In this document: one piece after another, positions 5,017 through 61,584 of the stretch
Layout: every line of letters begins with the position of its first letter
Position numbering within the stretch: the stretch's first letter is position 1
Virus record (IMG/VR): IMGVR_UViG_3300014947_000001
Reading direction: 5' to 3' (one strand)
DNA length: 64,000 bases
Origin: a virus
Program-made: the position numbers and the translations under genes
Notes under the pieces: model-generated
What the model was told of the DNA's origin: nothing
Databases searched by the model: none
What the model saw: the letters and a program-made list of their open reading frames with translations, nothing else

Positions 5017-5137
5017 AAAGATGTAACAAACAGAGGAAACAGAAAAATTAAAACAATTTCAAGATTCTTAAAACCTGATTCCAATTTCAGTTGTCTAATA
5101 ATTGTAACAAGAAAAAAAGAAACATAAATGCGTGAAT

Positions 5138-14015: not shown

Positions 14016-14591
14016 ATGAATTATGTACCATATGTTATAGACAATACAAACGGACACGAATATCACTCAGACTTATTTAGTCGTCTTTTAAGTTCCAGGA
14101 TCATTATTTTGAGTGGGGAAGTAGATGATGACATGGCAAGTCTTGCAGTTGCTCAGCTTTTGTACCTGGAATCTTTGGATCCGAATAAGGATATCCAGAT
14201 TTATATTAATAGCCCAGGCGGATCCGTTACAGCGGGTATGGCAATTTACGATACCATGCAGCATGTAAAATGTGACGTATCTACAATCTGTGTCGGATTA
14301 GCAGCTTCTATGGGCGCCTTTCTTTTAGCTGGCGGAACTTCCGGAAAACGATTCAGTCTTCCAAATGCGGAAATCATGATCCACCAGCCAAGTGGGGGCG
14401 CAAAAGGACAGGCTACCGATATTCAGATCGCTGCTCAGAATATCCAGCGTACGAAAAATAAGTTAAACGAATTGTTGGCAGCAAATACAGGACGTACCTT
14501 AGAAGAAGTTACATATGATACTGACCGAGACAACTTTATGAGTGCCGAAGAAGCTTTAGAGTACGGACTTATCGATCAGATCATCCAGTAG
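14016..14591 (+). CDS. clpP: ATP-dependent Clp protease proteolytic subunit ClpP
   Basis: Full-length ClpP with Ser (AASMGA) and His (IHQPSGG) catalytic motifs; high similarity to Bacillus ClpP throughout. Confidence 0.95.
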
Positions 14592-23295: not shown

Positions 23296-24711
23296 ATGAA
23301 ATGGAAAACATTAATAGGTTTATTTCTTTTTGCGATAACATTGATAGTGATATCTTTTGATGATACCACTATTTTTGCTGACGATACAGTAAACCAACCT
23401 CTGTTTACCATTACAATTCCAAAACAGCTTACGATTGATGCTGACAAATGCGTAGAATACCAGGTTTGCGTACACAGGAATAGAACCAATGCTGGTACAG
23501 TAACCGTTATCCCGGATACGGAAGTAGTGTTATCAGACAGTAAAGGAAAAGCTGACGTTACCGGACAAGTGGCTCAAGATCAGACGCAATTTGAGTTTGC
23601 AGCAGACGGAGCCGATGAACAGGTAACAAATGGAACTGTCACCGCAAATGACTTAACGGCAGGAGACTGGACTGGCGCTTTCAATTTTAAAATCGATATG
23701 CAGGAAACGAAAATTGGTGACGATATAACATTAACCAGTGACAATCTTGCAGTTTATAACATATCAACATCCGGCGACGTCGTAATTCCTGAGTATGTAA
23801 CAGATACCGGCGGAGTCAAACATAAGGTTACTTCTATTAATGAATATACTTTTGGCGGCTGTTCTGAAGTAACATCCATAACGATTCCGAAAAGTGTGAC
23901 ATCCATAGGTAATTGTGTAGTTTCTGATTGCGATAAATTGGTTTCAATTATTGTGGATTCTGAAAATCCTGTATACGATAGCAGAAACAATAGCAACGCA
24001 ATCATTGAAACTGAGACAAACCGATTAATACAGGGATGTAACACTACGGTTATTCCAGAAACCGTTACAACAATTGGGCAGTATTCATTTAGTTATTGTA
24101 ATTTACTCGCTACCATTTCAATCCCAGATAGTGTGAAATCTATTGAGAAAAGGGCTTTTGATTCTTGCGAGAATTTAACCTCAATCACAATACCAGACGG
24201 TGTGACAAGTATTGACAGTGATGCATTTGCATGGTGTTCCAATTTAACATCAATTTGTATTCCGAATAGCGTTACCCATTTAGGTGGCTATTTGTTTTAT
24301 AATTGCACGTCACTGACATCAGTAACGCTTCCAGAAAATATAGAATCGATTCCTGGTGGAACATTTGATGGATGTCAAAGTTTAGCATCCATTACAATTC
24401 CGAATAGTGTAACATCGATTGGAAGTGATGCGTTTTACGGTTGTAAACAATTGACATCTATAGATATCCCAAATTCGGTTACAATATTAGGTTCCTTCTC
24501 TATTGCAAATTGTACCGGATTAACATCTACTTCTATTCCGGATAATATTACTTCTATTGGAGAACGAGCATTTGGAAGCTGCACGAATCTTTCATCAGTT
24601 ACTTATAAAGGAAATACGTATACAAACAAAACTAATATTGAAACGGTACTTGCGGAAAATAATGTTGCTCTCGAAAACGTAATATTCGACAATACAGCAT
24701 TATCTGAATAA
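23296..24711 (+). CDS. BspA-type leucine-rich-repeat surface protein
   Basis: Signal peptide; family N-terminal domain; ~12 LRRs of the form L(T/A)SI.IP.SVTSIG..AF..C; ends YKGNTYT. Confidence 0.75.
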   Translation: MKWKTLIGLFLFAITLIVISFDDTTIFADDTVNQPLFTITIPKQLTIDADKCVEYQVCVHRNRTNAGTVTVIPDTEVVLSDSKGKADVTGQVAQDQTQFEFAADGADEQVTNGTVTANDLTAGDWTGAFNFKIDMQETKIGDDITLTSDNLAVYNISTSGDVVIPEYVTDTGGVKHKVTSINEYTFGGCSEVTSITIPKSVTSIGNCVVSDCDKLVSIIVDSENPVYDSRNNSNAIIETETNRLIQGCNTTVIPETVTTIGQYSFSYCNLLATISIPDSVKSIEKRAFDSCENLTSITIPDGVTSIDSDAFAWCSNLTSICIPNSVTHLGGYLFYNCTSLTSVTLPENIESIPGGTFDGCQSLASITIPNSVTSIGSDAFYGCKQLTSIDIPNSVTILGSFSIANCTGLTSTSIPDNITSIGERAFGSCTNLSSVTYKGNTYTNKTNIETVLAENNVALENVIFDNTALSE

Positions 24712-24764
24712 TGTTTTCATCAATAAAGTGGATTCTTCTTTTCGTTTCCTCTGTCCATGTTCAG

Positions 24765-24777
24765 ACCATATTTATCT
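24765..24777 (+). promoter_or_regulatory. Family-2-like motif
   Basis: gaccatatttatc ~50 nt upstream of the 24829 start. Confidence 0.35.
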
Positions 24778-24828
24778 TGTTACTCGTGAACAATTTATAC
24801 TGAACACAAAGAAAGGAAACGAAATATT

Positions 24829-26406
24829 ATGAAACGAAAAGCAGTGAGTTGTCTGCTTGTTCTGGCTGCGATCATGACGATGACGCCTACGATTCCAACA
24901 ATGGCAGCCGAAAACCCGGACAACACAACACAGGAAGCAACAACGACAGGAACTCAAGGAGCTACTATTACATATCAACAGGATTCCGCTTTTACCGTCA
25001 CCATTCCGAAGACGATCACATTAGGACAGAATAAGAGTGCAACCTATGGCGTCAAAGTAAAAGGTGACATTTCTGGGAATGAAACGGTTACCGTTACTCC
25101 TGATGCCACCATGCAGTTGACGGATTCGAATGGAAAGGCTGCGGTTACTGGAACAATTACTCAGGATGTTACAGAGTTTGCAGCCACAGAAGTGAATCTT
25201 CCAGATGGCAATAGTACAACTGGTAACATTGAAGCAAACGAACTTACGTCGGGAGACTGGTCAGGAAATTTTGAGTTTGCGATCGGTGTCAATAAAGAGT
25301 TAATCGCTGGACTTTATGACGCAGATGGAAAGATGGTTTGTACTTGGGAAGAGAGTGGAATCGATATCGAACAAGATTACACAGACTCATCTGGGAACAA
25401 TCCTTACACAACAACAACATCATCTGCTTATTATGTAATTACGAATAATTTTCCAACAGCTACATCTGTTGTTATCCCAGACGGTATCACCCACATTGGA
25501 AGTGAAAATTTTGATGGTTGTAAAAATATATCATCTATTGCGATTCCAGACAGCGTAACAAGTATTGGTAAATATGCATTCCAAGAAACAGGTATTACCA
25601 ATGTTGATATACCTGATAGTGTAACATCTTTTGGTGATGGTGTGTTTTGTAATTGCTCTAATCTTACAAATATTTCAATTCCAGAAGGTGTAACAAGTAT
25701 TGGATTTGGTGTATTTAAAGATTGCACTGGATTAACCTTAATTACAATACCAGACAGTGTAACAAGTATTGGAATTAGCACATTTAATAATTGTAACTCC
25801 TTAACATCCATTACGATACCAGATAGTGTAACAAGTATTGGAAATGCAGCTTTTTTTGGATGTGAAAAACTTGCAAATATCACAATCCCAGACAGTGTAA
25901 CAAGCATTGGACATCAAGCATTTAATGGTTGCAAAGGCTTAACATCCATTACAATACCAGATGTTGTAACAAGTATCGGGAGAGGCACATTTTGGGGATG
26001 TTCTAGCTTAAACTCAATCACAATACCAGACAGTGTGACAAGTATTAATAGTAATGCATTTAATGGTTGCAAAGGCTTAACATCCATTACAATACCAAAC
26101 GGTGTAACGAATATTGAAGGTGCCGCATTTAAAGGATGTTCAGCATTACCATCAATCACAATACCAGATGGCGTAACAAGCATTGGATATAGTGCATTTG
26201 AGGGTTGTAAAGGTTTAATATCTATTACAATACCAAACGGTGTAACGAATATTGGATATTATGCATTTAATAGTTGTTCAAACCTTGCATCTGTAACCTA
26301 TAAAGGACAGACCTACACAAGCATATCAGCACTAACAACAGCACTGAAAAATGATAAAGTAAAAATGGAATGGGATGTATTTAAAGGCACAGCCTTAACC
26401 AATTAA
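24829..26406 (+). CDS. BspA-type leucine-rich-repeat surface protein
   Basis: Signal peptide; N-terminal domain [17 protein letters not shown]; ~14 LRR units [11 protein letters not shown]; ends YKGQTYTS. Confidence 0.8.
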
Positions 26407-30092: not shown

Positions 30093-31883
30093 ATGGCAGA
30101 CAAAAAGAAACCTGTAAACGAAAGTCAACTTGAGAACGAAATTGATTGGTCTGCATATACTGCTGCCCAAACAAGAGAAATCCGTGAAGGTTTGGATGAT
30201 GGACTTGATGTATCTATTTATGCAGATCCACAGTACAACGCAGAACAGATGAATGAGATCAAACTTGGATTACGGACTGGCATTGATGTGACACAATATG
30301 CGGATCCGACATGCAATGCAGATAAGATGTATTTCATCCGAGAAGGATTAGAAAACAATCTTGATGTGTCAAAATATATGGATCCGAAATTTACGGAAGG
30401 TCAGCTTCGTATCATCATGACAGGTCTGAAAGAAGGATTAGACGTATCTGCTTATGCGAAACCAGAATACGATATTGTTCAGATGTATTATATCTTGAAT
30501 GGTTTGGAAAATGGATTTGATGTATCGAAATACGCAGATCCAAAGTATACTTCTGATCAGATGGCGATCATCCATATGGTGATGAAAGAAGGCTATGACG
30601 CATCAGCACTTTGTAATCCAGAGTTTAGTACCACACAGATGCATTATATCAGAAGCGGTTTGATTTCCGGAATTGATGTTACAAAATACGCAGATCCGGC
30701 ATTTTCAACAGAACAGATGTCAAGTATCATTTACGGTCTCGAGAAGGGTATTGATGTTACACCGTATGCAGATCCTAAATTTACATCACAACAGATGGAT
30801 TCTATTATGTTTGGTCTTGAACAGGGTGTTGATGTCTCTGTTTACGCAAACCAGCAGTTTACACAAAAGCAGATGGATGTGATATGTTTCAGTTTGATGG
30901 ATGGTATGTCTGTTTCTGATGTTGCCAAATTTGCGGATCCGGCTTTTTCTGTCGAACAGATGAATGAAATCAAGGATGGGGTGCGAGATAATCTGGACGT
31001 CTCTATTTATGCGGATCCGGAACTTACACCACAACAGATGCATAACATTTACCTTGGGCTGAGTGCAGGAATCAATGTTACAAATTACGTTAATATGATT
31101 AAAGGGATCGAATCAGATCCGGAAAAAGAGGTAAAATCGCTTTTGAGTCAGATGGATATGTATCAGAAACATCAGTTGATGCTTGGATTCGAAAGCAATG
31201 TGGATGTACTAAAGTATATGGATCCGAGATATGACTGGAAACAAATGAGACAGATCCGGTATGGTCTGGAAAAAGGATTAAACGTTTCCATTTATGCGGA
31301 TCCGAAATATGACAAGTACCAGATGGATGCGATTCGGCGTGGCATGGAATCCGGAATTGATGTTTCAAAATATGCGGATCCTGTTTTTAATGCCTTCCAG
31401 ATGTTTGAGCTTAAAAAAGCTATGGAATCCGGAATTGATGTATCGTTCTATGCGAAACCTGAGTTTGATTCTTATCAGATGCGACAGATTTCAGAAGGAT
31501 TGCGACACGGTTTGGATTTTGCATCCGTTTACACATATGCAGATCCAGTATTTAACGGATTTCAAATGAATGAGATCCGAATTGGAATGGAATCCGGACT
31601 TGATGTTTCTGTATATATGGATCCGGAATACACTAATGAACAGATGAAACAGATTCGGTATGGTATGGATCATAATATCGATGTATCCAGATATGCGGAT
31701 CCGAGTATTAGCGCTTCAGATATGGAGGAAATCAGACAGCATCTCGAATATGGAGCCCCGATTACCGGAGATATCAATATAGGCGCACTTAATATGTCAG
31801 ACACAATGACATTGGATGACCAAAACGCATTGGATAACCCTGAGTTCGATGACTTAGATGATCCTGGAGACATCGGAGATTAA
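30093..31883 (+). CDS. tandem-repeat protein (~19 x 31-aa repeats)
   Basis: RBS agaaggaggaaaagaatcATG; repeat consensus GLD.GLDVS.YADP.F...QM..I; acidic C-terminus. Confidence 0.7.
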   Translation: MADKKKPVNESQLENEIDWSAYTAAQTREIREGLDDGLDVSIYADPQYNAEQMNEIKLGLRTGIDVTQYADPTCNADKMYFIREGLENNLDVSKYMDPKFTEGQLRIIMTGLKEGLDVSAYAKPEYDIVQMYYILNGLENGFDVSKYADPKYTSDQMAIIHMVMKEGYDASALCNPEFSTTQMHYIRSGLISGIDVTKYADPAFSTEQMSSIIYGLEKGIDVTPYADPKFTSQQMDSIMFGLEQGVDVSVYANQQFTQKQMDVICFSLMDGMSVSDVAKFADPAFSVEQMNEIKDGVRDNLDVSIYADPELTPQQMHNIYLGLSAGINVTNYVNMIKGIESDPEKEVKSLLSQMDMYQKHQLMLGFESNVDVLKYMDPRYDWKQMRQIRYGLEKGLNVSIYADPKYDKYQMDAIRRGMESGIDVSKYADPVFNAFQMFELKKAMESGIDVSFYAKPEFDSYQMRQISEGLRHGLDFASVYTYADPVFNGFQMNEIRIGMESGLDVSVYMDPEYTNEQMKQIRYGMDHNIDVSRYADPSISASDMEEIRQHLEYGAPITGDINIGALNMSDTMTLDDQNALDNPEFDDLDDPGDIGD

Positions 31884-31953: not shown

Positions 31954-32574
31954 TTAGTTTTCGGTTGTTTCAGGTCTAAGTCCGGAAACAATGTTTTGGA
32001 TATACTCGTAGGTCTGCGGACAGTAAGTCTGTAAATTTTCTGGCTGCTGCACATAGATCTGGAACGCTTCAGCAAAATATTCGACAGCTGTGTCCGTGTT
32101 ACTATGATGTGTTTTCCAGAATGAGCTTACATTATTATGTTCTACAGCGAATATATCGTTAAACGTCTGCGAATTTGAGGTAAACCCGCAAGAATAATCA
32201 ATAGCATGTCCGACTTCATGTACGATTGATGGTTCTGCTTTCTTTCGATTGTCAATATAGATAACCTTGTCGTTATAGACGGTTAAAGCGAGAATCGATC
32301 CTGTATATCCATATCGTTTACCAAAACTCTGAGCTGAGCAGATGAATGTCCAGCCTTGGTCCTCCAGATATTGTCTTACATTCTCTGGGATTCCTAAATA
32401 GTACGCATTTACATTGTTGACTCTGGTCTTCGAAACTTTTCCTTCTGCCTGGACAACATTACTCTGTGTACAAACATCTGCTGCAAATCCTGATACCGGT
32501 GTTTGGATAACCATAGCAATTGCCAGTACAAGTCCTACCATACATTTCTTGAAACTGAAACCTCTCTGATTCAT
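31954..32574 (-). CDS. secreted zinc metalloprotease-like protein
   Basis: Signal peptide; HExxH zincin motif IVHEVGHAID. Confidence 0.55.
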   Translation of the reverse strand: MNQRGFSFKKCMVGLVLAIAMVIQTPVSGFAADVCTQSNVVQAEGKVSKTRVNNVNAYYLGIPENVRQYLEDQGWTFICSAQSFGKRYGYTGSILALTVYNDKVIYIDNRKKAEPSIVHEVGHAIDYSCGFTSNSQTFNDIFAVEHNNVSSFWKTHHSNTDTAVEYFAEAFQIYVQQPENLQTYCPQTYEYIQNIVSGLRPETTEN

Positions 32575-32633: not shown

Positions 32634-32816
32634 TTCAGCGCACACGAATGCCGGAAACGAATCATTCGTCAACATATACAAAAATGCATGAATATACGAA
32701 AACAGGCTTGTGCAAAACAGCGAACAGTAATAAAATGTTGAATTGTTGGAGAAAACCTAAAACCGATTCCTGTTTTCTACTGTCTTTTAAGTAGACGGAT
32801 AGAAAGGAGGGATTGC

Positions 32817-32972
32817 ATGGATGAACACAGAGAGGAAATCATTCATGAGGAACCATGCCGGGAGATGTTATGGTTTCAGGAGCTGGCACAACAAGACCAG
32901 AACGGATATACAGTAAACAAAACGAAAGTGAGAAAGATATTAGAGTACATATTACGGAGGATGAAAAATGAA
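32817..32972 (+). CDS. small protein (51 aa) translationally coupled to the sigma factor
   Basis: RBS gaaaggagggattgcATG; its stop overlaps the sigma start (ATGAATAG); absent from ORF track. Confidence 0.35.
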
Positions 32973-34929
32973 TAGCTACACCGAAGCAGTACAAAAAGCA
33001 ATGAAAGGAGACCAGGAAGCGTATACGTACCTGTATGAGAAAACGTATACGAAATGTTTTTACCTGGCGAGGAAGTTTTTAAACAGCGAGCACACAGCAC
33101 AGGATATCGTTCAGGATGCCTATGTGAAGGCTTTTAAGTCTCTGGATACCTTAGAAGACCCGGAGAAGTTTCAGTCATGGATCGGAACGATTGTGTCGAA
33201 CCTTGCCAAAAACGAACTGAAACGAAGAAAGGTAACCTTGTTCTCTGAAACAGAAAACGAAGACGGACAGGATATCAGTGATACCTTTGTGGATGACCGT
33301 GTGTCTGTTCAGCCGGAAGTCGTTATGGATCAGAATGAGACAACGAGACTGATGAAAGAGATCATTGATACTTTGACAGATGAACAGCGCATCTGTGTCA
33401 CAATGTTCTATATGGAACAGATGTCTGTAAAAGAAATGGCGTCCGTGCTTGAAGTATCAGAGAACACCGTTAAGAGCCGCCTGAATTATGGCAGACAAAA
33501 GATCAAAGACAAAGTATTAGACCTCGAAAAGAAAGGTACCAAGCTTTATGGTCTTGCTCCGATTCCATTCTTCCTGTTGCTGCTTAAAGAGGACGTCAAA
33601 GCGGCACAGGCAACACAGATTCCGTCAATGTCGGCTGCAGTGTCTTCAGCAACCAAAGCAGTTGCAACCGCAGCAGGAACCGGAAGTACCGTTGCCGGAA
33701 CAACCGCAGCCACAGTAGCAGCAGGCGCCGGAAAGGGAATCGCAACAAAGGTGATCGCAGGCATTGTCGCCGGAACGCTTGTTATCGGAGGTGGAGCAGC
33801 AGCGATTGTGCATATGCAGGGGCAGAGCGGAAATCATTATAAACTTGCAAAATCAATTTCAGATTTACCTGACTGGGCGTATGATAGTACAAATGGATTA
33901 AAATATATAAGCATTCAAGATTATAAATATCCAATTAGTTTAATTTTAGATTATGATAAGGATATGGTGGAGCGTGGCGAGGTTAAGTATTATTCCAATC
34001 CAGGTCATACAGGATATGAAGGAATGAAATGTGATCCAAAAGTTTGGTATTTTGGAGAATATAATGGACGTATCTATTATGTGGATAGAGCTAATACAGA
34101 GAATCTACGTTATCATTTATACCGTGTGCCAAAAGCTTCTGATTATGATTTATATTTAGAAGATTCAGATACTTATATGGCTTCTATATTTAATGATCTT
34201 AATGCAAGAAGTTCAGATAGTTTTTTATTTACATATGATGAAGATGAACATAATCAATATGTTGCGATTGAGGATATGATCAATTCTGACGGCTATAGTT
34301 TTGATGAATGGTACTGCATTACAGAAGATGACCTTATTCCGGATGCTGTAGATGCATACAATGATTGGGTTGCAAATGGGGAGGCAGAGATGAATGCCAT
34401 ATATGCATCCCATATCACTGTAACAGAATCAGTCCCGGAAACAGAAACAGAAACCGAAGAAGTAGTGGAAGAAGTAACTGAGGAACCGACAGAAACGGCT
34501 CCGGAAGAAACAGAAGTACAGGAAGCAGAAGGGGAGACCGTTGATCAGAGCGGAAATATTCCGGTTCCGAACTATACGCCAACTGGCAATTTCTGGAATA
34601 CACCTGGTTCTTACTCAAGCAATGATGGACAGACATTATCATTAAGCATGTTTACGGAAGACGGTGGAGTAGAAGGATGGTGCGGAAACATAAATGGCGG
34701 ATCAGTAGGTTCTCTGGAAGTCTTCAATTATGGTGATAAGATCTATTATCTGAAGAAAGCAGACAGTTCCTATTCGAATTTCACAGACAGCGGATATGCA
34801 TTTACTTTGGAACCGTCCGGAGAAACACTTGACATTTATGGGGAAACCTATGATATAATACTTTTGAAGTTGTACTATAATGGTGTACTTCAAGGAGAGT
34901 ACTATGAAACAGACCTCTATCAATCATAA
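32968..34929 (+). CDS. ECF-type sigma-70 family protein fused to a transmembrane segment and large C-terminal extracytoplasmic domain
   Basis: Region 2 (DIVQDAYVKAF..FQSWIGTIVSNL); region 4 (EQRICVTMFYMEQMSVKEMASVLEVSENTVKSRL); Ala/Gly/Thr-rich transmembrane segment ~aa 215-265; ~380-aa C-terminal domain. Confidence 0.75.
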   Translation: MNSYTEAVQKAMKGDQEAYTYLYEKTYTKCFYLARKFLNSEHTAQDIVQDAYVKAFKSLDTLEDPEKFQSWIGTIVSNLAKNELKRRKVTLFSETENEDGQDISDTFVDDRVSVQPEVVMDQNETTRLMKEIIDTLTDEQRICVTMFYMEQMSVKEMASVLEVSENTVKSRLNYGRQKIKDKVLDLEKKGTKLYGLAPIPFFLLLLKEDVKAAQATQIPSMSAAVSSATKAVATAAGTGSTVAGTTAATVAAGAGKGIATKVIAGIVAGTLVIGGGAAAIVHMQGQSGNHYKLAKSISDLPDWAYDSTNGLKYISIQDYKYPISLILDYDKDMVERGEVKYYSNPGHTGYEGMKCDPKVWYFGEYNGRIYYVDRANTENLRYHLYRVPKASDYDLYLEDSDTYMASIFNDLNARSSDSFLFTYDEDEHNQYVAIEDMINSDGYSFDEWYCITEDDLIPDAVDAYNDWVANGEAEMNAIYASHITVTESVPETETETEEVVEEVTEEPTETAPEETEVQEAEGETVDQSGNIPVPNYTPTGNFWNTPGSYSSNDGQTLSLSMFTEDGGVEGWCGNINGGSVGSLEVFNYGDKIYYLKKADSSYSNFTDSGYAFTLEPSGETLDIYGETYDIILLKLYYNGVLQGEYYETDLYQS

Positions 34930-35362: not shown

Positions 35363-36331
35363 ATGAAACAAAAAACAGTTCGTTTCCTGTCATTTTTGTC
35401 TGCTTTATGTATGGTAACCACACAATCGGTACCTGCGTTAGCTGCAGACAGTACTCAGGAAACAAATATAGCTGGTAAACAATCAGCCATCGTAAACTAT
35501 GAGCAGGCATCCGCCTTTTCGGTTACAATTCCAAAAGCAATTGTGTTAAATAGTAACAAGAATGCTACCTACAACGTGAAAGTCAAAGGTGATATTGCCG
35601 GAAATGAAAGCGTACCCGTTATTCCGGATGCAACAGTAACCTTAAACGACGTAAATGGCAAAACACCAGTAACAGGAACTATTGATCAGGTAAAGACAGA
35701 GTTTTTGTGCAATGAGATTGCAGCAGATGATGGATGTTCGACCGATGGTAAGATCACTGCTGATTCGTTAACATCCGGTGATTGGTCTGGCGTATTCAAA
35801 TTCGAAATTGATGTAGACAAAAAGATAGATGCTGGACTTTATGACACAAATGGAGTAATGCTATGTTCTTAGGAAGATAGTGGAATTAATCCAGAAAAGA
35901 ATTATGTACCATATGGCGGATCTCCTGATTATTTTATCGATGCTATAAATTCAGCATATTATGTAATTAACAAAAAATACCCTTCTGTTATCAATATTGT
36001 AATTCCAAATAACGTATATCAGATTGGTAATCATGCTTTTGCCAATGATAATAATGGTCATTCTGTTTATACTGTCGAGAATGTTTTTATTCCTAATAGT
36101 GTAACGAAGATAGGAAATATGTCTTTTTCTTATTGTGAAACTCTTAAATATGTTTCAATCTCCAACAATATAACTAGTATAGGTTCTAAAGCCTTTTACA
36201 CCTGTACGTCGTTAATTTCCGTCAAATACAGAGGAACTGTTTACGATACAAAATCAGTGCTAGAAGCAGTATTGGTCGCTAACGGAGTAAATGTCAGTGC
36301 AGATGCATTCGAGAAAACAGCTTTAAAATAA
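35363..36331 (+). pseudogene. BspA-LRR family member interrupted by an in-frame TAG (TGG->TAG)
   Basis: 35363-35872 and 35873-36331 share one frame; MLCS*EDSGIN here versus [11 protein letters not shown] in the 24829 paralog, placing the stop at the conserved Trp codon. Confidence 0.6.
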
Positions 36332-40864: not shown

Positions 40865-41917
40865 TTAGTCTCCTTTGTTTTCTTCTGATTTGTTGGTATC
40901 TTCGTATTTGATGCCTCGGATCAGCTGTTTTCGTTCTTCTGACATCGTTGTGTAAAAATCTTTCGTCGTCTGAATGTTTTTGTGACCTAATGCGGTGGCA
41001 GTCAAATACAAATCTCCTGTTTGATTATAAAGTTTTGTTCCGAAAGTACGTCTTAAGGTATGAGGAGTTACATGCTCTCCAATGGTATCTCCATACGCTT
41101 TGATCATTCGTTCTACGGACCGTACTGATAACCGATCGCCAGTTGCATGTCTTGATGATAAAAATAATGCCCGGTTTGCGTCATCGTAAGGTTGTCTTTC
41201 AAAATCAATATAACGATCGATAGCTTTTCGAACCACATCATTTATAAGTACGTCCTCCTCTTTTCCTCCCTTTCTTGTTACGTGGATTGTCATTGTATTC
41301 CGATTAATGTCATCAATATTTAGATTACATAATTCAGAAACACGGATTCCAGTATACGCAAGTGTTGTTATGATTGCAATATTTCTATACTTTGTATTTT
41401 CAAGATAAAACAAAGATTCTGGTTTTCCAACACAAGCCTTCACATTATTCAACAATTCTACTGTTTCGTCACTTGTTAGTGGTCGTTTCTTTTCCAATTC
41501 CGCTTTTGGTCTATCTATTAATTTTGCAACATTCATAGAAAGTCCTTTGAATGTAACCAGATATTGGAAAAAAGCTCGCATACAGCTTAGCTTTTGTGCT
41601 CTTGCTTTTGCTTCATTATGTACTGTTTCATACTCAGTCATATGCAAACGTAAATAACTCATATATTTTTGCATATCAAGAGCATTGATTTGATTTAACA
41701 TATCTATTGTGATATCGCTATATTCAGAAATCAAAGAATTTCGGTCAATCAAAAATTGAAAGAAATTACGAATATTATATGCATATGAAATCATCGTATT
41801 GTAAGATCTGCCCAATGTTCCGTCACAATAATCAAAATAGTCTTTTACGTAGTCTGGAAGATCTACTTTTAACCTATTCAATTGTTGCAGTTTTTTGTAT
41901 TTTACATCTTCTTTCAT
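40865..41917 (-). CDS. int: tyrosine site-specific recombinase / integrase
   Basis: Catalytic motifs R..(ELCNL), HTLRRTF, LGHKNIQTTKDFY; start re-assigned to MKEDVKYKK. Confidence 0.9.
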   Translation of the reverse strand: MKEDVKYKKLQQLNRLKVDLPDYVKDYFDYCDGTLGRSYNTMISYAYNIRNFFQFLIDRNSLISEYSDITIDMLNQINALDMQKYMSYLRLHMTEYETVHNEAKARAQKLSCMRAFFQYLVTFKGLSMNVAKLIDRPKAELEKKRPLTSDETVELLNNVKACVGKPESLFYLENTKYRNIAIITTLAYTGIRVSELCNLNIDDINRNTMTIHVTRKGGKEEDVLINDVVRKAIDRYIDFERQPYDDANRALFLSSRHATGDRLSVRSVERMIKAYGDTIGEHVTPHTLRRTFGTKLYNQTGDLYLTATALGHKNIQTTKDFYTTMSEERKQLIRGIKYEDTNKSEENKGD

Positions 41918-41956
41918 AATGAATATTATAGAACGAATACGAAAAAATGGCAACAA

Positions 41957-41989
41957 ATCTGACGAGTTTTCCATACTTTGAGCCTTATC
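41957..41989 (+). promoter_or_regulatory. Family-1 motif
   Basis: atctgacgagttttccatactttgagccttatc; overlaps the integrase 5' region on the opposite strand. Confidence 0.45.
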
Positions 41990-42031
41990 ATATGTAAACA
42001 AATAATTCGAAAACAAAAGGAGATTTTTACA

Positions 42032-42313
42032 ATGAGAACAATCAAGGAAGATACGGTTAAAGAAGCAATCGATTTCTATGGTGCGAACATTCAGGCAACA
42101 ATCTGTATGGAAGAATGCGCAGAGCTTATCCAATGCATCAGCAAAGAGATTCGAGGCAAATCAAACATTGATCATCTTGCTGAGAAAATGGCAGATGTAT
42201 GTATCTGTATTGAGGCTTTAAAACAGATTTATGGTATTTCAGATGAGCAGATGCAGTTCTGGATTGATTTCAAACAGAAACGTATCGAGGATCGTATGTT
42301 GAAAGGAGAATAA
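42032..42313 (+). CDS. MazG-like nucleotide pyrophosphohydrolase
   Basis: RBS aaaggagatttttacaATG; EECAELIQ...EKMADV, typical of all-alpha NTP-PPases. Confidence 0.5.
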   Translation: MRTIKEDTVKEAIDFYGANIQATICMEECAELIQCISKEIRGKSNIDHLAEKMADVCICIEALKQIYGISDEQMQFWIDFKQKRIEDRMLKGE

Positions 42314-45206: not shown

Positions 45207-45608
45207 TTATTCATTTGTTTCGGAAGCTTCATCTATCGTTTCCGGCTCTACTGCTTCTCCCATCAACTCAGAATAATGCATGAAAAGCATTACGATCGGA
45301 CAACAAACAAAATAGATCATACCAATAGCAAATCCCATAAGTACGAAGAATATTGTTATCAGTAGTCCTACAAGGCTAAATCCCGGGAATGTCAGATGAC
45401 TTGTAAAAATACGAAAAGCCCTACTTAACGCATACAACAGGGCAGTCCAACCATTGATCAATAGGTATGACACTACAGCCATCGGAATTCCGATCAGATA
45501 CCCACCTTCTTCAGCATAATAACCCGTCATAAAAACCGTTACGATCGGTGTTGTAATTGACATAATTGCTGCTGCTATCATTCTTTTACTCCATGTTACA
45601 TTTTCCAT
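45207..45608 (-). CDS. multi-transmembrane protein, tandem paralog
   Basis: RBS gaaaaggagatttaggattATG; four transmembrane segments. Confidence 0.5.
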   Translation of the reverse strand: MENVTWSKRMIAAAIMSITTPIVTVFMTGYYAEEGGYLIGIPMAVVSYLLINGWTALLYALSRAFRIFTSHLTFPGFSLVGLLITIFFVLMGFAIGMIYFVCCPIVMLFMHYSELMGEAVEPETIDEASETNE

Positions 45609-45708
45609 AATCCTAAATCTCCTTTTCTTTTTGTTATATGTTATTTTTAGGTTACACTTATTAGACAAGCAAAATCGTCAACAGGTTTTAAAGATTACAA
45701 AATATTTC

Positions 45709-46074
45709 TCATTCTTCTACAACCCAATTGCTAAGATCATAAAGAAGCATCAGGATAAATGCGATTACAAACCCAATATTCAAGACGATTGCTGCTGTAT
45801 TTCCGGTACATAAACTCATAAGGAATACCATTATGACAAATGCAATAAAAGTACCCCAAAGAGAGAATGTTGAAATAAATACCAATACAAGAGCTGTAAC
45901 TACCACATAGATGGAAGCGGTGCTGCCTACGAATTCCACAATGTCGAATAACATTGTCCTGTCTTCGCTAAGCCGGTCAATAAAAGTTGGAATAGCCTCG
46001 AATACTACAAACAAAGCCATCAGGGCTACCTTAACCAGTGTGAATACTACATACAATACATTTACAGATTTCAT
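45709..46074 (-). CDS. multi-transmembrane protein, tandem paralog
   Basis: RBS cgaaaaggagaaaacgaaaATG; conserved upstream element CTTATTAGACA.AGCAAA...AACAGGTTTTA shared with 45207. Confidence 0.5.
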   Translation of the reverse strand: MKSVNVLYVVFTLVKVALMALFVVFEAIPTFIDRLSEDRTMLFDIVEFVGSTASIYVVVTALVLVFISTFSLWGTFIAFVIMVFLMSLCTGNTAAIVLNIGFVIAFILMLLYDLSNWVVEE

Positions 46075-46524
46075 TTTCGTTTTCTCCTTTTCGTGTTTGA
46101 AATTTTTGTTCCGTATACTTATTAGACAGAGCAAATCACAAACAGGTTTTACGAAAACGAAAAATATTTATAAAAAGTTTCTGAGATAGTAAATCGCATG
46201 CAAAAATATAGAGCTCGACACGTGAATACGAGCATTTGTTTAGCATCATTGGAGCCCAAATATACGCATGCAGACATACCGAAAATGACGTTATTTTTAA
46301 AAAAGCGTCAAATGAGTTTGAAAACACAGACACCGCAAACCCAGTAAATTCAAGAGTTCTGGACTTTTCAAAACATGGTGTCAAAAGCCCCTATGGGTAC
46401 CCGAAGAAAGATTTGACACCATCCTGGGTTTCAAAGCCTGTTATCCTTTCAAGTTCTCTCAAACACTGAAAACTGAGCATAAGAAAAACAGCCCTGAATT
46501 TCAGAGCTGTCGTTTTCTCATTTG

Positions 46525-49155: not shown

Positions 49156-50286
49156 ATGTCTGCAAATATCTATTTTGAACACGAATATCCAGATACGACA
49201 ATAATAAACACAGCCGCAGTCGTAACAGCAATTCGATGTCAAAAGAATCATTACCTTACAGATGTTATCACAACAGACATCGTGGACCCTGATTCTAGTA
49301 ACTGTTACGCGTGCCCTTATTACAAAAAAGGTGTTAATTGTGCGAAATCCTGTGATCAGAAACAATTTGTCAAAAAACAGGTTCGTACCTATATTAATGA
49401 GCACAATCGTTTCGGGTACAAAAAAGAGCTTCCTACACTTGCAATCAAACTTTTTCTGTACCTGCACTTTTTGCGCTCAGATAAATTCGGGTACCTTCGT
49501 ATTGAATTAGAAGAAGCTGCAACTATTTTATCCTGTTCCAGGCGTTCTGTCATTCGTAATTTACATACGTTGTCGGAACGTGGTTATATTTCATATACAA
49601 AAGGTCTATATACAGGAACATACCAAGTGTTTCTATTGTCGTCAACCGAAAACAAGAAAACTGCATCCCAGGGTGGACGTGGTTATTTTGTGCTGTCTTA
49701 CGATATGTTTAAGATCCTTCTTGGATGTCAGACGATCAATGAACTAAGGCTTCAGTTAAGAGGCGTTATTTCAACTCTTGAAGGTGCAACGAAAAATCAG
49801 ATCCTTCATGAGACTTCTTATGCTGACATTAAACGCATGCTTCCAGCGTATGCAACAAAGAAACTTATCAGAAATACGATTACATCAGATCATTTCTGTC
49901 AGATGTTCGGTGTAAAGTTATCAAAAGAACGTTCCTTCTTTTATATTACAATGAAAGAAGAATACAATCCAATTCGTATCAAATCGGCTAAAGTAGATGA
50001 TGCCAAAGCAACAATTGAATCTGCCTTAAGTCGTATCAATGCAGACATCACAAAAGTCAACAAAAAACAAAAGACAAAGATTTCTCTACTATCTTTAACA
50101 AATGAGGATATTCGAGACGTTGCTAATATTTCGCTACAACTGCCAGTATCCTGCATTGTACAAGCATTGTCGCGTTTCCATGAGACATATATCAAAAAAG
50201 GGGAACGGATCAGAAGTATCGGGGCTATGGTACGAACACTTGCTTGGGATATTTATGGATACCAAAAACTCGTTCCCGGAACTTAA
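49156..50286 (+). CDS. replication initiator / replisome organizer with winged-helix domain
   Basis: RBS gaaaggagttgacgcgATG; wHTH LAIKLFLYLHFL...ELEEAATILSCSRRSVIRNLHTLSERGYI. Confidence 0.55.
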   Translation: MSANIYFEHEYPDTTIINTAAVVTAIRCQKNHYLTDVITTDIVDPDSSNCYACPYYKKGVNCAKSCDQKQFVKKQVRTYINEHNRFGYKKELPTLAIKLFLYLHFLRSDKFGYLRIELEEAATILSCSRRSVIRNLHTLSERGYISYTKGLYTGTYQVFLLSSTENKKTASQGGRGYFVLSYDMFKILLGCQTINELRLQLRGVISTLEGATKNQILHETSYADIKRMLPAYATKKLIRNTITSDHFCQMFGVKLSKERSFFYITMKEEYNPIRIKSAKVDDAKATIESALSRINADITKVNKKQKTKISLLSLTNEDIRDVANISLQLPVSCIVQALSRFHETYIKKGERIRSIGAMVRTLAWDIYGYQKLVPGT

Positions 50287-53546: not shown

Positions 53547-54227
53547 TTAAAATCGACCTAATCTGACCGATACATCACAAATACTATCTTCGAGCTTTTC
53601 TTTAATTCGCTTTGCGCATTCCTCTTTGTCTGTATCAGATATTTTTGTTGGATCAGGATATTCTTTGTTTAATTCCCTGCAAACGTACTCTGCTTTTTGT
53701 CCGAGTTTGTATCCTTTTTCTTTGTATCGTTTGTAATCAGGAGCAATATCAATTGAATTTGAATCAAATACGGTCCAGGTATTATAACCTTTGATTAACA
53801 AAGCAACACAGAAAACAAATACAAGAATGATCGTCACGTTGATGTTAATGAACAACATCGGCGATAAAAACAGGGTGATTATTGGAATTAAGATCCAGGA
53901 AGTAATGATTCTGAATTTTTCCTGTTTATTCAAATATTGTAATAAATCCTCTGTCATTCTTGTACAACAATGTTCGAATCGATTTTTGTCTTGATCACAA
54001 TAAATGAAAATATTATACTGCTTGAAATCGTTAGGGACTGAAACAAATCTTTTAGCTACCAGTTTCGGCAAGAAATATTCGATTGCGATCGCTGCTACAA
54101 TAATCATAACGGGACCGACACATAATCCGAGTAACTTTAAGATCAATCTAAGGGTCTCGAAATACCCCATGCCGTCTGCGTGTTGCAACTGGTTAATAAT
54201 TTTTACAAGTTCGTCTGTTTGAAACAT
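53547..54227 (-). CDS. MFxTEEL-family membrane protein, paralog 1 of 4
   Basis: N-terminus MFQTDELVKIINQLQHA; three to four transmembrane segments. Confidence 0.6.
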   Translation of the reverse strand: MFQTDELVKIINQLQHADGMGYFETLRLILKLLGLCVGPVMIIVAAIAIEYFLPKLVAKRFVSVPNDFKQYNIFIYCDQDKNRFEHCCTRMTEDLLQYLNKQEKFRIITSWILIPIITLFLSPMLFININVTIILVFVFCVALLIKGYNTWTVFDSNSIDIAPDYKRYKEKGYKLGQKAEYVCRELNKEYPDPTKISDTDKEECAKRIKEKLEDSICDVSVRLGRF

Positions 54228-54267
54228 AATACTTTTCTCCTTTTCTTTTGATGGTTTATTTGTTACG

Positions 54268-54280
54268 TCTTAAATATGTG
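54268..54280 (-). promoter_or_regulatory. Family-2 motif (minus strand)
   Basis: Plus-strand cttaaatatgtgc = gcacatatttaag on the minus strand, ~40 nt upstream of the 54227 start. Confidence 0.4.
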
Positions 54281-54458
54281 CCCGATATTAATGGAGAAAC
54301 CGGTGTTCTATATGATAAGTTGGGCACAAAAATACCGGATGCTAACACACTCATACGGAAACAAAATATCAGGGAACAAAAAGTATTGCTAAACTGATTA
54401 ATCGATTTACTTTCTTTTTGTTCCCATAAATATTCGTTTCCGATAATTCTATCGTTTA

Positions 54459-55157: not shown

Positions 55158-55196
55158 ATATAATCTCCTTTCGTTTCCTCTGACTTAACTATTCAT

Positions 55197-55230
55197 AATA
55201 AGGCTCAAAATACCGAAAACTCGTCAGGAA
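55197..55230 (-). promoter_or_regulatory. Family-1 motif (minus strand)
   Basis: Plus-strand aataaggctcaaaataccgaaaactcgtcaggaa. Confidence 0.5.
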
Positions 55231-55320
55231 ACAAAATATCAGGGAACAAAAAGTTGGTAAATTAATTAATTAATTGGTTTACTTTCTTTTTGTTCCCATG
55301 AATATCCGTTTCCGAAACAG

Positions 55321-56016: not shown

Positions 56017-56055
56017 AGATAATCTCCTTTCATTTCCTCTGATTTAACTATTCAT

Positions 56056-56089
56056 AATAAGGCTCAAAATACTGAAAACTCGTCAGGAA
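56056..56089 (-). promoter_or_regulatory. Family-1 motif (minus strand)
   Basis: Plus-strand aataaggctcaaaatactgaaaactcgtcaggaa. Confidence 0.5.
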
Positions 56090-56190
56090 ACAATAAATTA
56101 GGGAGCAAAAAGTCGGTAAACTAATTAATTGGTTTACTCAACTCTTGCTCCCTAAACATCTGTTTCCGAAATAATCAGTAACTGAATTCG

Positions 56191-61562: not shown

Positions 61563-61584
61563 CTTTCTTTCTTTTGTTGTTATC

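What the first reader, a model, noticed from the sequence alone, without database searches (positions are those of the whole stretch)
32817..34929. Membrane-tethered ECF-like sigma factor with a coupled upstream mini-ORF, candidate master regulator of the element
- The 653-aa protein has sigma-70 regions 2 and 4, followed by an Ala/Gly/Thr-rich transmembrane segment and a ~380-aa extracytoplasmic domain.
- That domain contains an acidic, E/T-rich PETETETEE linker.
- The architecture resembles a sigma/anti-sigma fusion whose activity would require proteolytic release.
- A 51-aa ORF (32817-32972) overlaps its start (ATGAATAG), suggesting translational coupling.
- The element also encodes ClpP and a ClpX-like unfoldase, which is a plausible release route by regulated proteolysis.
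- Two element-specific promoter families are available as targets.
Basis: partly seen in the sequence, partly recalled or inferred. Interest (0 to 1): 0.6.

Follow-up and report, generated by a model that had tools for sequence, protein, structure and literature searches.

The report
Membrane-tethered sigma factor with microprotein partner
A gut-bacterial mobile element carries a transcription (sigma) factor anchored in the membrane with an outward-facing sensor, co-expressed with a tiny conserved partner protein. It most likely switches on only itself and three envelope-protein genes, so it is a local signal-sensing module and not the element's master regulator.

Summary
ORF 32968-34929 encodes a 653-aa protein with an ECF-type sigma domain, an Ala/Gly/Thr-rich linker, one TM helix and a ~370-aa acidic ectodomain. 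A 52-aa ORF (32817-32975, not 51 aa) overlaps its start by ATGAATAG.

New findings:
- **Family.** The protein belongs to a large, apparently undescribed family of membrane-tethered ECF sigmas in gut Clostridia (329 loci in species-representative genomes).
- **Mini-ORF.** It is a conserved, unannotated microprotein that leads these sigma operons.
- **Promoter.** The family shares an ECF-type promoter, TAAAACC-N17-GTCT.
  - It has four exact copies in the window against 0.11 expected.
  - They lie before the sigma operon, two small polytopic membrane proteins and one secreted Cys-rich protein.
- **Other promoter families.** The two abundant element-specific families (17 and 16 copies) look nothing like this motif, so "master regulator" is not supported.
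- **Anti-sigma domain.** None was found, so this is a tethered sigma, not a demonstrated sigma/anti-sigma fusion.
- **Sensor.** A 460-bp cassette just outside the membrane is hypervariable between otherwise near-identical elements.

Release by intramembrane proteolysis, possibly with Clp, is plausible but inferred only. I rate it a new variant of a known kind, of moderate interest.

The parts
32758..32785 (+). ECF-type promoter of the mini-ORF/sigma operon: TAAAACC (-35), 17-nt spacer, GTCT (-10); predicted transcription start ~32791-32793
   Evidence: The same bipartite motif lies upstream of the operon in 41 of 80 family loci. The exact pattern has 4 hits in the window against 0.11 expected.
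32817..32975 (+). Mini-ORF, 52 aa, first cistron. Member of a conserved two-helix microprotein family (pattern F-x-x-L ... E-K-A-x-x-I-L-x-x-I-L). RBS AAAGGAGGG at 32803-32811.
   Evidence: Homologous mini-ORFs sit directly upstream of diverged sigma homologues. The HMM finds about 35 significant hits among 7227 small ORFs. All are on the sigma strand, and nearly all abut the sigma start or lead the sigma operon. There are 80 hits at E<=0.01 in 5.8 billion proteins, none with Pfam or a name.
32968..34929 (+). Membrane-tethered ECF-type sigma factor, 653 aa. Its start overlaps the mini-ORF stop (ATGAATAG). RBS GGAGGA at 32956-32961.
33031..33231 (+). Sigma region 2 (aa 22-88)
   Evidence: Pfam PF04542; AlphaFold2 pLDDT 82-90; Foldseek and phmmer best hits are SigW, sigmaE and AlgU.
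33352..33504 (+). Sigma region 4 (aa 129-179)
   Evidence: Pfam PF08281/PF04545
33523..33585 (+). Family hallmark motif directly after region 4: LEKKGTKLYGLAPIPFFLLLL (aa 186-206). A basic patch is followed by a 14-residue Pro-containing hydrophobic stretch.
   Evidence: Invariant or near-invariant in alignments. A generalised form is present across the whole family.
33586..33741 (+). Low-complexity Ala/Gly/Thr/Ser/Val linker (aa 207-258), predicted disordered
   Evidence: Composition; pLDDT <50. The median family spacer from region 4 to the TM helix is ~88 aa, of which ~52% are small residues.
33742..33816 (+). Single transmembrane helix (aa 259-283) with the family motif K-x-x-A-G-x-x-A...G-G-G
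   Evidence: Hydropathy 2.14; AlphaFold2 helix; GG in 46 of 72 family TM segments.
33805..34266 (+). Hypervariable cassette covering the membrane-proximal half of ectodomain A (aa ~280-433)
   Evidence: DNA identity to a sister element (L095) is 40-67% here and 92-100% in the flanks. Protein identity is 25-44% here against 97-99% in the sigma domain.
33835..34422 (+). Ectodomain A (aa 290-485), mixed beta/alpha fold, confidently modelled, with no significant structural or sequence relative
   Evidence: pLDDT 76-94; Foldseek PDB best E=0.19; only 6 hits in 1.84 billion representatives.
34429..34593 (+). Acidic Glu/Thr-rich disordered linker (aa 488-542)
34600..34917 (+). Ectodomain B (aa 545-650), small antiparallel beta-barrel
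5069..5096 (+). Second copy of the sigma-family promoter (TAAAACCTGATTCCAATTTCAGTTGTCT)
   Evidence: conserved in a sister contig (L008).
5220..6767 (+). Predicted target gene: 515-aa secreted protein with a signal peptide, an Asn/Thr/Ser/Gly-rich linker and a C-terminal region with many CxxC pairs
   Evidence: no Pfam, PHROG or NCBIfam match.
46124..46151 (-). Third copy of the promoter (TAAAACCTGTTTGTGATTTGCTCTGTCT)
45709..46074 (-). Predicted target gene: 121-aa polytopic membrane protein (ATG at 46074)
   Evidence: no family match.
45663..45690 (-). Fourth copy of the promoter (TAAAACCTGTTGACGATTTTGCTTGTCT)
45207..45608 (-). Predicted target gene: 133-aa polytopic membrane protein (ATG at 45608)
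   Evidence: no family match.

Best explanation
**What it is.** The locus is an autoregulated two-gene operon carried on a large mobile element, probably a phage, of a Lachnospiraceae-like gut bacterium.
- The first cistron is a 52-aa microprotein.
- The second, translationally coupled, is an ECF-type sigma factor of the SigW/RpoE kind.
- The sigma's C-terminus continues into a conserved basic-plus-hydrophobic motif, a flexible Ala/Gly/Thr linker, one TM helix (N-in, C-out) and a two-domain ectodomain.

Both proteins belong to families that are widespread and chromosomal in gut Clostridia. The element has captured one copy.

**Shown by computation.**
- The architecture of the protein.
- The conservation of the microprotein as leader of these operons.
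- A family-wide ECF-type promoter, TAAAACC-N17-(C/T)GTCT, in front of the operon here and at three other places in the window. Those three sites precede two small polytopic membrane proteins and one secreted Cys-rich protein.

**Inferred.**
- The sigma recognises that promoter. It would therefore activate itself and this small envelope regulon, not the 33 promoters of the two element-specific families.
- At rest the sigma is kept from RNA polymerase by its membrane tether, perhaps aided by the juxta-region-4 hydrophobic motif and/or the microprotein acting as a small anti-sigma.
- A signal sensed by the hypervariable ectodomain triggers ectodomain shedding and site-2 intramembrane cleavage in the Gly-rich TM helix. 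That would expose an Ala-rich C-terminus that a Clp unfoldase could trim, freeing the sigma domain.
For: **Architecture**
- ECF domains.
- TM helix and charge asymmetry.

**Family**
- 1088 homologues scored.
- 329 loci in species-representative genomes of Lachnospiraceae, Oscillospiraceae, Ruminococcus and others.
- 72 of 79 surveyed genes have a TM segment after a ~90-aa spacer, about half of it small residues, with variable ectodomains including LRR_5, SH3_3 and Big_2.

**Microprotein**
- Syntenic in loci whose sigma is 44-55% identical, including one with a different ectodomain.
- HMM hits are confined to the sigma strand and operon start.
- 80 database hits, all unnamed.

**Promoter**
- The bipartite motif is found in 34 of 80 upstream regions, against a maximum of 12 for any motif in shuffled controls.
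- Spacing is fixed, and 41 of 80 loci match with slight relaxation.
- There are 86 hits in 600 kb of family loci. 36 lie within 450 nt upstream of the sigma, and most others sit just downstream of the sigma or ahead of upstream operon genes.
- The window has 4 exact hits against 0.11 expected, and 0 of 100 shuffles reach 4.

**Regulon type**
- In other loci the motif precedes small 3-4-TM proteins, lipoproteins or secreted proteins, and further microproteins. These are the same classes as the three targets here.

**Closest relatives**
- The closest solved relatives, SigW and sigmaE, use AAC/-10 CGT- or GTC-type promoters (established knowledge).

**Release by proteolysis**
- Precedent exists in IutY and is proposed for ECF52 (PMC8999054).
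- The TM helix has conserved Gly pairs or triplets.
- The tail is Ala-rich.
- The element encodes a genuine ClpP and a ClpX-like AAA+ protein.
Against: - Nothing here is experimental. The sigma-promoter assignment rests on position, enrichment and the usual autoregulation of ECF sigmas.
- About half of the family loci lacked a recognisable motif or microprotein in my crude scans.
- No site-1 or site-2 protease is linked to the locus.
- The conserved small-xxx-small/GG pattern in the TM helix could equally serve dimerisation.
- A ClpXP degron at the C-terminus could destroy the sigma instead of activating it.
- AlphaFold2 gives no confident model for aa 189-289, so neither autoinhibition nor membrane association of the hallmark motif is shown.
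- The three target proteins have no detectable sequence similarity to targets in other loci.
- No dedicated TM or topology predictor could be run.
Confidence: 0.6

Rival explanations
1. The sigma is the element's master regulator. Once released by the element's own ClpXP, it drives the two abundant element-specific promoter families.
For: - It is the only Pfam-detectable sigma factor in the window.
- The two promoter families do not resemble a sigma-70 consensus, so they need some dedicated factor.
- ClpP and a ClpX-like gene are present.
Against: - The sigma's own operon and its relatives' operons carry a different, classical ECF promoter.
- Neither Family 1 nor Family 2 has the AAC / GTC elements.
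- The sigma operon itself has neither family motif upstream, while its neighbours on both sides do.
- The sigma domain is 50-60% identical to chromosomal relatives that have no such element.
Confidence: 0.07
2. The sigma works while still tethered, like ToxR or CadC one-component membrane regulators. The long flexible linker lets the holoenzyme reach DNA at the membrane. The ectodomain and/or the microprotein (as a NepR/CnrY-like small anti-sigma) gate activity without proteolysis.
For: - A long disordered spacer rich in small residues (median ~88 aa) is conserved in the family, although a simple cleavage substrate would not need it.
- All predicted targets are membrane or secreted proteins, which are inserted co-translationally at the membrane.
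- The conserved two-helix microprotein has the size of known minimal anti-sigmas (NepR and CnrY complexes appear among the sigma's structural neighbours).
- The small-xxx-small TM motif could mediate dimerisation.
Against: - I found no precedent for a sigma factor active while membrane-anchored in the searchable literature. The characterised fused example, IutY, is released by proteolysis.
- The microprotein shows no sequence similarity to any solved anti-sigma.
Confidence: 0.22
3. The gene is a passenger, or a decoy with no transcriptional role in the element. For example, it might be a captured host gene whose ectodomain acts as a surface protein, or a tethered sigma that titrates a host protease or anti-sigma.
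For: - The ectodomain cassette is hypervariable like a surface or receptor protein.
- The neighbourhood is rich in LRR_5 surface proteins.
Against: - The sigma domain is 97-99% conserved among element variants whose ectodomain cassette is only 25-44% identical. This implies strong purifying selection on the sigma part.
- Four intact cognate promoters are kept in the element.
Confidence: 0.06

Closest known systems
IutY of Pseudomonas putida (ECF243 sigma/anti-sigma hybrid) and the predicted Actinobacterial fusions ECF48/52/53 (e.g. SCO4117)
   Same: A single polypeptide with an N-terminal ECF sigma domain, TM helix or helices and an extracytoplasmic sensor. Activation is by regulated proteolysis: shown for IutY with Prc and RseP, proposed for ECF52 (PMC8999054).
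   Different: - Those proteins contain a recognisable anti-sigma domain (FecR-like or zinc-finger) between sigma and membrane. Here none is detected; instead there is a short conserved basic/hydrophobic motif and a low-complexity linker.
- The phylum differs (Bacillota).
- The ectodomains are unrelated.
- There is a conserved upstream microprotein.
- This copy sits on a mobile element.
Bacillus subtilis SigW-RsiW and E. coli RpoE-RseA
   Same: - They are the closest solved sigma domains (SigW 1.2e-21; sigmaE 3e-17).
- The promoter logic is the same type (AAC-containing -35, CGT/GTC -10).
- The operon is autoregulated.
- The regulon consists of envelope proteins.
- In those systems site-2 cleavage exposes an Ala-rich end that ClpXP degrades (established knowledge).
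   Different: In those systems the membrane-spanning partner is a separate anti-sigma encoded downstream. Here the sigma itself is membrane-spanning, and the extra gene is a soluble microprotein encoded upstream.
NepR / CnrY-type minimal anti-sigma factors
   Same: They are very small two-helix proteins or domains that clamp an ECF sigma. The microprotein has comparable size and predicted helix-loop-helix character.
   Different: There is no sequence similarity, the microprotein lies upstream and not downstream, and binding is untested.
ToxR / CadC membrane-bound one-component transcription regulators
   Same: Cytoplasmic DNA-recognition module, disordered linker, single TM helix and an external sensor in one chain.
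   Different: Those are winged-helix activators that bind DNA on their own. This is a sigma factor that must join core RNA polymerase.

Membership tests
ECF (group 4) sigma factors | Sigma regions 2 and 4 present | tested here: met
   Pfam PF04542, PF08281, PF04545 and PF07638 above cut-offs. TIGR02937 scores 97 bits against cut-off 42.9.
ECF (group 4) sigma factors | No region 1.1 or region 3; short linker between regions 2 and 4 | tested here: met
   No Sigma70_r3 or r1 hits. A ~35-aa acidic disordered linker spans aa 88-126.
ECF (group 4) sigma factors | Cognate promoter with AAC-type -35 and CGT/GTC-type -10, usually upstream of its own operon (autoregulation) | tested here: met
   TAAAACC-N17-GTCT at 32758-32785. 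The motif is shared by 41 of 80 family loci and enriched around them. Recognition by the sigma is inferred, not shown.
ECF (group 4) sigma factors | Assignment to a defined ECF group (ECF Hub group HMMs) | not testable with these tools
   Group HMMs are not available, and the supplementary tables of PMC7826278 are not held. All NCBIfam equivalog models (SigW, RpoE, SigM and others) score far below their cut-offs.
Sigma/anti-sigma fusion proteins (IutY/ECF243, ECF52-type) | Anti-sigma domain (class I ASD / zf-HC2 / FecR-like) between the sigma domain and the membrane | tested here: not met
   No Pfam or NCBIfam hit beyond aa ~190. In the AlphaFold2 model aa 189-289 have pLDDT <50 and do not pack on sigma2 or sigma4.
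Sigma/anti-sigma fusion proteins (IutY/ECF243, ECF52-type) | TM helix followed by an extracytoplasmic sensor domain | tested here: met
Sigma/anti-sigma fusion proteins (IutY/ECF243, ECF52-type) | Activation by site-1/site-2 proteolysis | not testable with these tools
   Only indirect hints: a Gly-rich TM helix, an Ala-rich linker, and ClpP on the element.
SigW-RsiW / RpoE-RseA type modules | Separate membrane anti-sigma gene immediately downstream of the sigma gene | tested here: not met
   The downstream gene (35363-35872) has its own Family 2 promoter and no anti-sigma domain.
ClpXP protease (as proposed release route) | Genuine ClpP proteolytic subunit | tested here: met
   NF001368 scores 311.7 bits against cut-off 249, full length. 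The head-maturation model scores only 99.8 against 120.
ClpXP protease (as proposed release route) | Genuine ClpX unfoldase | tested here: inconclusive
   The AAA_2 domain is present, but ClpX equivalog models score 81 and 73.5 bits against cut-offs of 359 and 371.
Translationally coupled operon | Stop/start overlap with an RBS for the downstream cistron inside the upstream one | tested here: met
   ATGAATAG overlap, with GGAGGA 6 nt before the ATG. In my start assignments, mini-ORF stops lie 3 nt past the sigma start (the spacing of an ATGA overlap) in at least 8 other loci, and short overlaps or gaps occur in others.

The most novel reading that the evidence does not exclude
Gut Clostridia, and a prevalent mobile element that infects them, would use a previously undescribed one-polypeptide signalling device.
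- The device is an ECF sigma pinned to the membrane by a conserved monotopic motif plus a TM helix.
- It is controlled jointly by a dedicated ~50-aa microprotein (a new class of anti-sigma or co-factor) and by a rapidly diversifying extracellular sensor.
- On the element, it lets the phage or plasmid read an external cue with allele-specific (pherotype-like) specificity. It then remodels the host envelope, for example for superinfection exclusion or lysis timing, through two small membrane proteins and a secreted Cys-rich protein.
Probability: 0.2. Interest if true: 0.75.

Novelty: new variant of a known kind. Interest (0 to 1): 0.5.

Why it matters
- **Scarce precedent.** ECF sigma factors fused to their own membrane sensor are known mostly from predictions, with a single characterised case (IutY).
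- **Size of the family.** This family is large: hundreds of loci in dominant human- and animal-gut Clostridia. It lacks the expected anti-sigma domain and always brings a tiny unannotated partner protein.
- **Directly testable.** The analysis yields a concrete promoter consensus and a small predicted regulon, so the system can be tested.
- **Practical uses.** It could supply orthogonal sensor-to-transcription parts for gut Firmicutes. It also points to a microprotein class that gene callers often miss.
- **Meaning for the element.** A mobile element carrying such a module, with a hypervariable sensor cassette, suggests that it listens to the outside of its host.
- **Annotation.** The sigma should not be labelled the element's master regulator. 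The factor that reads the 33 element-specific promoters is still unknown.

Tried and rejected
- **Head-maturation protease.** I first read the ClpP-like gene as a phage head-maturation protease from PHROGs. I rejected this after NCBIfam placed it above the cut-off of a genuine ClpP model and below that of the head-maturation model.
- **Frameshift fusion.** I considered that the mini-ORF is the sigma N-terminus joined by a frameshift. I rejected this because relatives have the two ORFs separated by up to ~40 nt or by an intervening lipoprotein gene.
- **Diversity-generating retroelement.** I considered this for the hypervariable cassette. It is unlikely, because 460 bp at 40-67% identity is far beyond DGR-type A-specific variation.
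- **Nucleotide matches.** Megablast of 24 kb against the phage and plasmid collections gave no match.
- **Circular 115-kb genome.** I tested whether the IMG/VR contig that starts inside the sigma gene is a circular genome broken at the cassette. No N-terminal sigma sequence was found in IMG/VR, so this is unresolved.
- **Ectodomain relatives.** The 1.84-billion-protein search gave only its own lineage. Foldseek against the PDB gave nothing significant, and afdb50 was unavailable.
- **ECF group assignment.** The supplements of the classification paper are not held.
- **Target homology.** phmmer of the three predicted targets against targets in other loci gave no hits.
- **Microprotein relatives.** The microprotein profile against PDB and Pfam gave nothing significant.
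- **Rfam.** The window has no matches.
- **Literature.** Searches for membrane-tethered or membrane-bound sigma factors in Firmicutes/Lachnospiraceae found nothing relevant.
- **Motif/microprotein association.** A Fisher test linking the hallmark motif to microprotein presence is confounded by phylogeny and by my regular expression, so I do not use it.
Full report
**1. Checking the observation**

The ORF at 32968-34929 (+) encodes 653 aa.
- Pfam finds Sigma70_r2 (aa 22-88), Sigma70_r4_2 (aa 129-179) and the whole-length Sigma70_ECF model (aa 2-182).
- NCBIfam's general ECF model TIGR02937 scores 97 bits against a cut-off of 42.9. All specific equivalog models (SigW, RpoE, SigM and others) stay far below their cut-offs.
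- A 19-residue hydropathy scan gives one segment above 1.6, at aa ~259-283 (maximum 2.14). Lysines lie on its N side, and the C-terminal 368 aa are strongly acidic (72 D/E, 19 K/R).
- This fits an N-in/C-out topology in a Gram-positive envelope. No dedicated topology predictor was available.
- AlphaFold2 places a helix at 259-283 and leaves aa 189-289 otherwise unstructured.
- The Glu/Thr-rich stretch is real and modelled as disordered (aa 488-542).

The mini-ORF is 52 aa (32817-32975 with its stop), one codon longer than reported.
- It overlaps the sigma start by ATGAATAG.
- Each ORF has a good Shine-Dalgarno sequence.

The element's ClpP is genuine, and the "ClpX-like" protein is only a distant AAA+ relative. 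The two repeated promoter-like families exist.

**2. The sigma belongs to a large family**

The protein search returned 1088 significant hits among the candidates scored.
- About 100 share the whole architecture and come from human-gut metagenome contigs of 5-330 kb.
- The rest share only the first ~280 residues and carry other C-terminal domains, including LRR_5, SH3_3 and Big_2.
- A scan of one genome per species found 329 loci. The best 80 came mainly from Lachnospiraceae (Pseudobutyrivibrio, Agathobacter, Roseburia, Blautia), Oscillospiraceae, Ruminococcus, Faecalibacterium and Acutalibacteraceae.

In 72 of 79 surveyed genes a hydrophobic segment follows the sigma domain. The spacer between them has a median of ~88 aa, about half of them A/G/T/S/V. 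After the TM helix comes a median of ~330 further residues.

Two sequence hallmarks stand out.
- Directly after region 4 there is a basic patch plus a Pro-containing hydrophobic stretch. Here it reads LEKKGTKLYGLAPIPFFLLLL, and the general form is ..KKG.xLY(G/S)xAPxPxLLxLL(R/K). It is invariant among close relatives and recognisable throughout the family.
- The TM helix follows a pattern K-x-x-A-G-x-x-A...G-G, with GG in 46 of 72 members.

No anti-sigma domain is detectable.

The closest solved sigma domains are B. subtilis SigW, E. coli sigmaE and P. aeruginosa AlgU.

**3. The mini-ORF is a conserved microprotein**

Loci whose sigma is only 44-55% identical to this one carry a 40-50-aa ORF in the same place. 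One of them, from Pseudobutyrivibrio, has a different ectodomain. The ORFs share the pattern F-x-x-L ... (S/P)-x-E-K-A-x-x-I-L-x-x-I-L.

I built an HMM from 18 such peptides and searched it against all 7227 ORFs of 25-120 aa, in six frames, from the fetched loci.
- It gave about 35 significant hits.
- All were on the sigma strand.
- Nearly all ended within ~50 nt of the sigma start.
- The exceptions mostly lead operons of the form microprotein, then lipoprotein or secreted protein, then sigma.

A profile search of 5.8 billion proteins found 80 members of 38-89 aa. None has a Pfam domain, and the few that are named are almost all called "hypothetical protein". The profile matches nothing significant in the PDB or Pfam.

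The arrangement is not a frameshifted N-terminus, because the spacing varies from short overlaps to gaps of ~40 nt. In my start assignments the mini-ORF stop lies 3 nt past the sigma start in at least 8 loci, the spacing of an ATGA overlap.

**4. What the sigma probably reads**

A bipartite word count on the 260 nt upstream of each operon singled out TAAAAC(C) ... GTCT. It occurred in 34 of 80 sequences, against a maximum of 12 for any pair in shuffled controls.
- The spacing is fixed at 17 nt between AACC and GTCT.
- A slightly relaxed pattern matches 41 of 80 loci, 160-250 nt before the sigma ATG. That is just ahead of the microprotein gene.
- In the window the site is 32758-32785, 32 nt before the mini-ORF.
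- Across the family loci the motif occurs 86 times in 600 kb. It is concentrated before the operon, just after the sigma gene, or before upstream operon genes.

This is a classical ECF promoter shape (AAC-containing -35, GTC/CGTC -10) and fits the SigW/sigmaE-like sigma domain.

In the 64-kb window the exact pattern occurs four times against 0.11 expected, and 0 of 100 shuffles reach four. The four sites are:
- its own operon;
- 5069-5096, before a 515-aa secreted protein with a signal peptide and many CxxC pairs;
- 46151-46124, before a 121-aa polytopic membrane protein;
- 45690-45663, before a 133-aa polytopic membrane protein. Both minus-strand genes have their own RBS and terminator.

All four share the extended -10 context TGTCT-(a/t)(a/t)-TAA(G/T)T. 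In other family loci the motif precedes the same kinds of genes: small 3-4-TM proteins, lipoproteins or secreted proteins, and further microproteins.

**5. Why it is not the master regulator**

- Family 1 (ttCCTGACGAG-N13-TGAGCCTTATT) has 17 copies. All are co-oriented with genes, and most lie ~40-55 nt upstream of start codons.
- Family 2 (cTTTG(T/C)AA-N~10-(C/T)(A/C)TATTTA(A/G)) has 16 copies.
- Together they cover both arms of the window.
- Neither contains the AAC/GTC elements.
- The sigma operon has neither motif. Its flanking genes use Family 2 or a near variant: the divergent metalloprotease gene and the gene at 35363.
- No other Pfam-detectable sigma is present, so the factor reading these 33 promoters remains unknown.

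**6. The sensor**

With a 17-sequence alignment, AlphaFold2 models two ectodomains confidently.
- Domain A (aa 290-485) has no significant structural neighbour (Foldseek best E = 0.19).
- By sequence the ectodomain is essentially confined to this element lineage, with 6 hits in 1.84 billion representatives.

Between element variants the sigma domain, hallmark motif, TM helix and domain B are 90-100% identical, while aa ~284-440 are only 25-44% identical. At the DNA level identity falls abruptly from ~95% to 40-67% between 33805 and 34266, then recovers. This is an allelic cassette in the membrane-proximal part of the sensor.

**7. Mechanism**

Shown by computation:
- the architecture;
- the operon structure;
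- the conserved partner protein;
- the promoter and candidate regulon.

Inferred:
- The sigma recognises TAAAACC-N17-GTCT and autoregulates.
- It is inactive while tethered.
- It is released by ectodomain shedding followed by site-2 cleavage within the Gly-rich helix.
- The Ala-rich remnant is trimmed by a Clp unfoldase. This follows the analogy with RsiW and RseA (established knowledge) and with IutY (PMC8999054).

I give the proteolytic route roughly 55% and activity while tethered roughly 20-25%. The role of the microprotein (small anti-sigma, stabiliser or co-factor) is open.

**8. Comparison with what is known**

Functionally the closest systems are the sigma/anti-sigma hybrids (IutY, and ECF52-type predictions). 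Membership fails on their defining anti-sigma domain. The sigma domain itself is a bona fide ECF sigma of the SigW/RpoE neighbourhood.

I found no description of this Clostridial family, its microprotein or its promoter in the searchable literature. I could not check the ECF Hub group tables, so the family may already carry a group number there.

**9. Verdict**

- The finding is a new variant of a known kind.
- It is of moderate interest because it defines a large, testable and apparently unstudied signalling family in gut Firmicutes, with a mobile-element-borne copy that has a hypervariable sensor.

Noticed in passing
window 981-61077: Family 1 at 981, 4097, 4987, 5141, 6837, 7743, 9150, 12160, 21204, 26507, 41960 (+) and 52585, 55226, 56085, 56982, 58872, 61077 (-): There are 17 copies of a strongly conserved promoter-like element, ttCCTGACGAG-N13-TGAGCCTTATT. 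Most lie ~40-55 nt upstream of start codons, mostly of small genes for membrane or unknown proteins. It resembles neither sigma-70 nor the ECF motif. The factor that reads it is unknown.
   Followed up: partly
window 10197-62988: Family 2, e.g. 10197, 15948, 17421, 18086, 18786, 20226, 22346, 26587, 26917, 35288, 39248, 42990 (+); 52782, 61610, 62988 (-): There are 16 copies of a second promoter-like element, cTTTG(T/C)AA-N~10-(C/T)(A/C)TATTTA(A/G). They sit in front of larger genes: the chemoreceptor, LRR proteins, the PIF1 helicase, the SSB-like gene and the ClpX-like gene. A one-mismatch variant precedes the metalloprotease gene next to the sigma.
   Followed up: partly
window 61298-61571 (transcribed on the minus strand from the Family 2 promoter at 61610-61585): Four to five copies of a 36-nt repeat (GGTATACGCTACCTGGAAATAGCCAGGGTCTATAAC, with an internal 5-bp hairpin) are separated by unique 30-, 30- and 20-nt spacers, and the copies degenerate toward one end. 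This looks like a mini-CRISPR-like array or a set of iterons. No cas gene was seen nearby, and Rfam has no match.
   Followed up: partly
window 10260-12062 (+): The element encodes a full-length methyl-accepting chemotaxis protein (dCache_2/sCache + MCPsignal). This is unusual cargo for a phage-like element and implies a motile host.
   Followed up: no
window 14016-14591 (+) and 61716-62930 (-): The element carries a cellular-type ClpP (above the NCBIfam ClpP subfamily cut-off, below the head-maturation-protease cut-off) and, 47 kb away, a divergent ClpX-like AAA+ ATPase. Their role is unknown.
   Followed up: partly
window 31954-32574 (-): A secreted Zn-metalloprotease-like protein (signal peptide, HEVGH motif, Pfam ATLF 2.4e-12) is divergently transcribed from the sigma operon. 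It is syntenic in all close element variants. In more distant sigma loci an XRE-type HTH gene occupies this position. It is a speculative candidate site-1 protease.
   Followed up: no
window 53547-56919 (-): Four tandem paralogous genes encode ~225-242-aa membrane proteins sharing the N-terminus MF(H/Q)T(E/D)EL..II(D/N)QLQ. Three of them have their own Family 1 promoter. A fifth, unrelated gene at 57093-57818 follows.
   Followed up: no
window 30093-31883 (+): A 596-aa protein is built almost entirely of ~26-aa (78-nt) repeats of the form DVS.YADP.....QM..I..G...G. It has no family assignment beyond repeat-driven weak hits.
   Followed up: no
window 23296-26406 (+), and L095 12249-16122: LRR_5 (BspA-like) surface proteins with 69-nt repeats. 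Their number and length differ between otherwise syntenic element variants, so this is a variable surface-protein region flanking the sigma.
   Followed up: no
window 1643-2773 (+); window 40865-42133 (-); window 49156-50286 (+): A TnpB/IS605-family gene, a tyrosine integrase in the middle of the window (with element promoters on both sides) and a DnaD-like replication initiator. IMG/VR lists a 115-kb contig that starts inside the sigma's hypervariable cassette. The size and nature of the element (large phage, phage-plasmid or other) were not resolved.
   Followed up: partly
L078 2554-3845, L063 2333-3854, L077 22-1253, L076 1737-3820: In some chromosomal family loci the microprotein gene is followed by a lipoprotein or secreted-protein gene and only then by the sigma gene. 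This gives a three-gene operon variant.
   Followed up: partly
window 34594-34926 compared with P0112 aa 539-576: There is weak similarity (single-comparison E = 7e-4 over 38 aa) between the start of ectodomain B and the C-terminal module of a Pseudobutyrivibrio family member that has a different middle domain. This may be a shared terminal beta-barrel module, but the result is inconclusive.
   Followed up: partly
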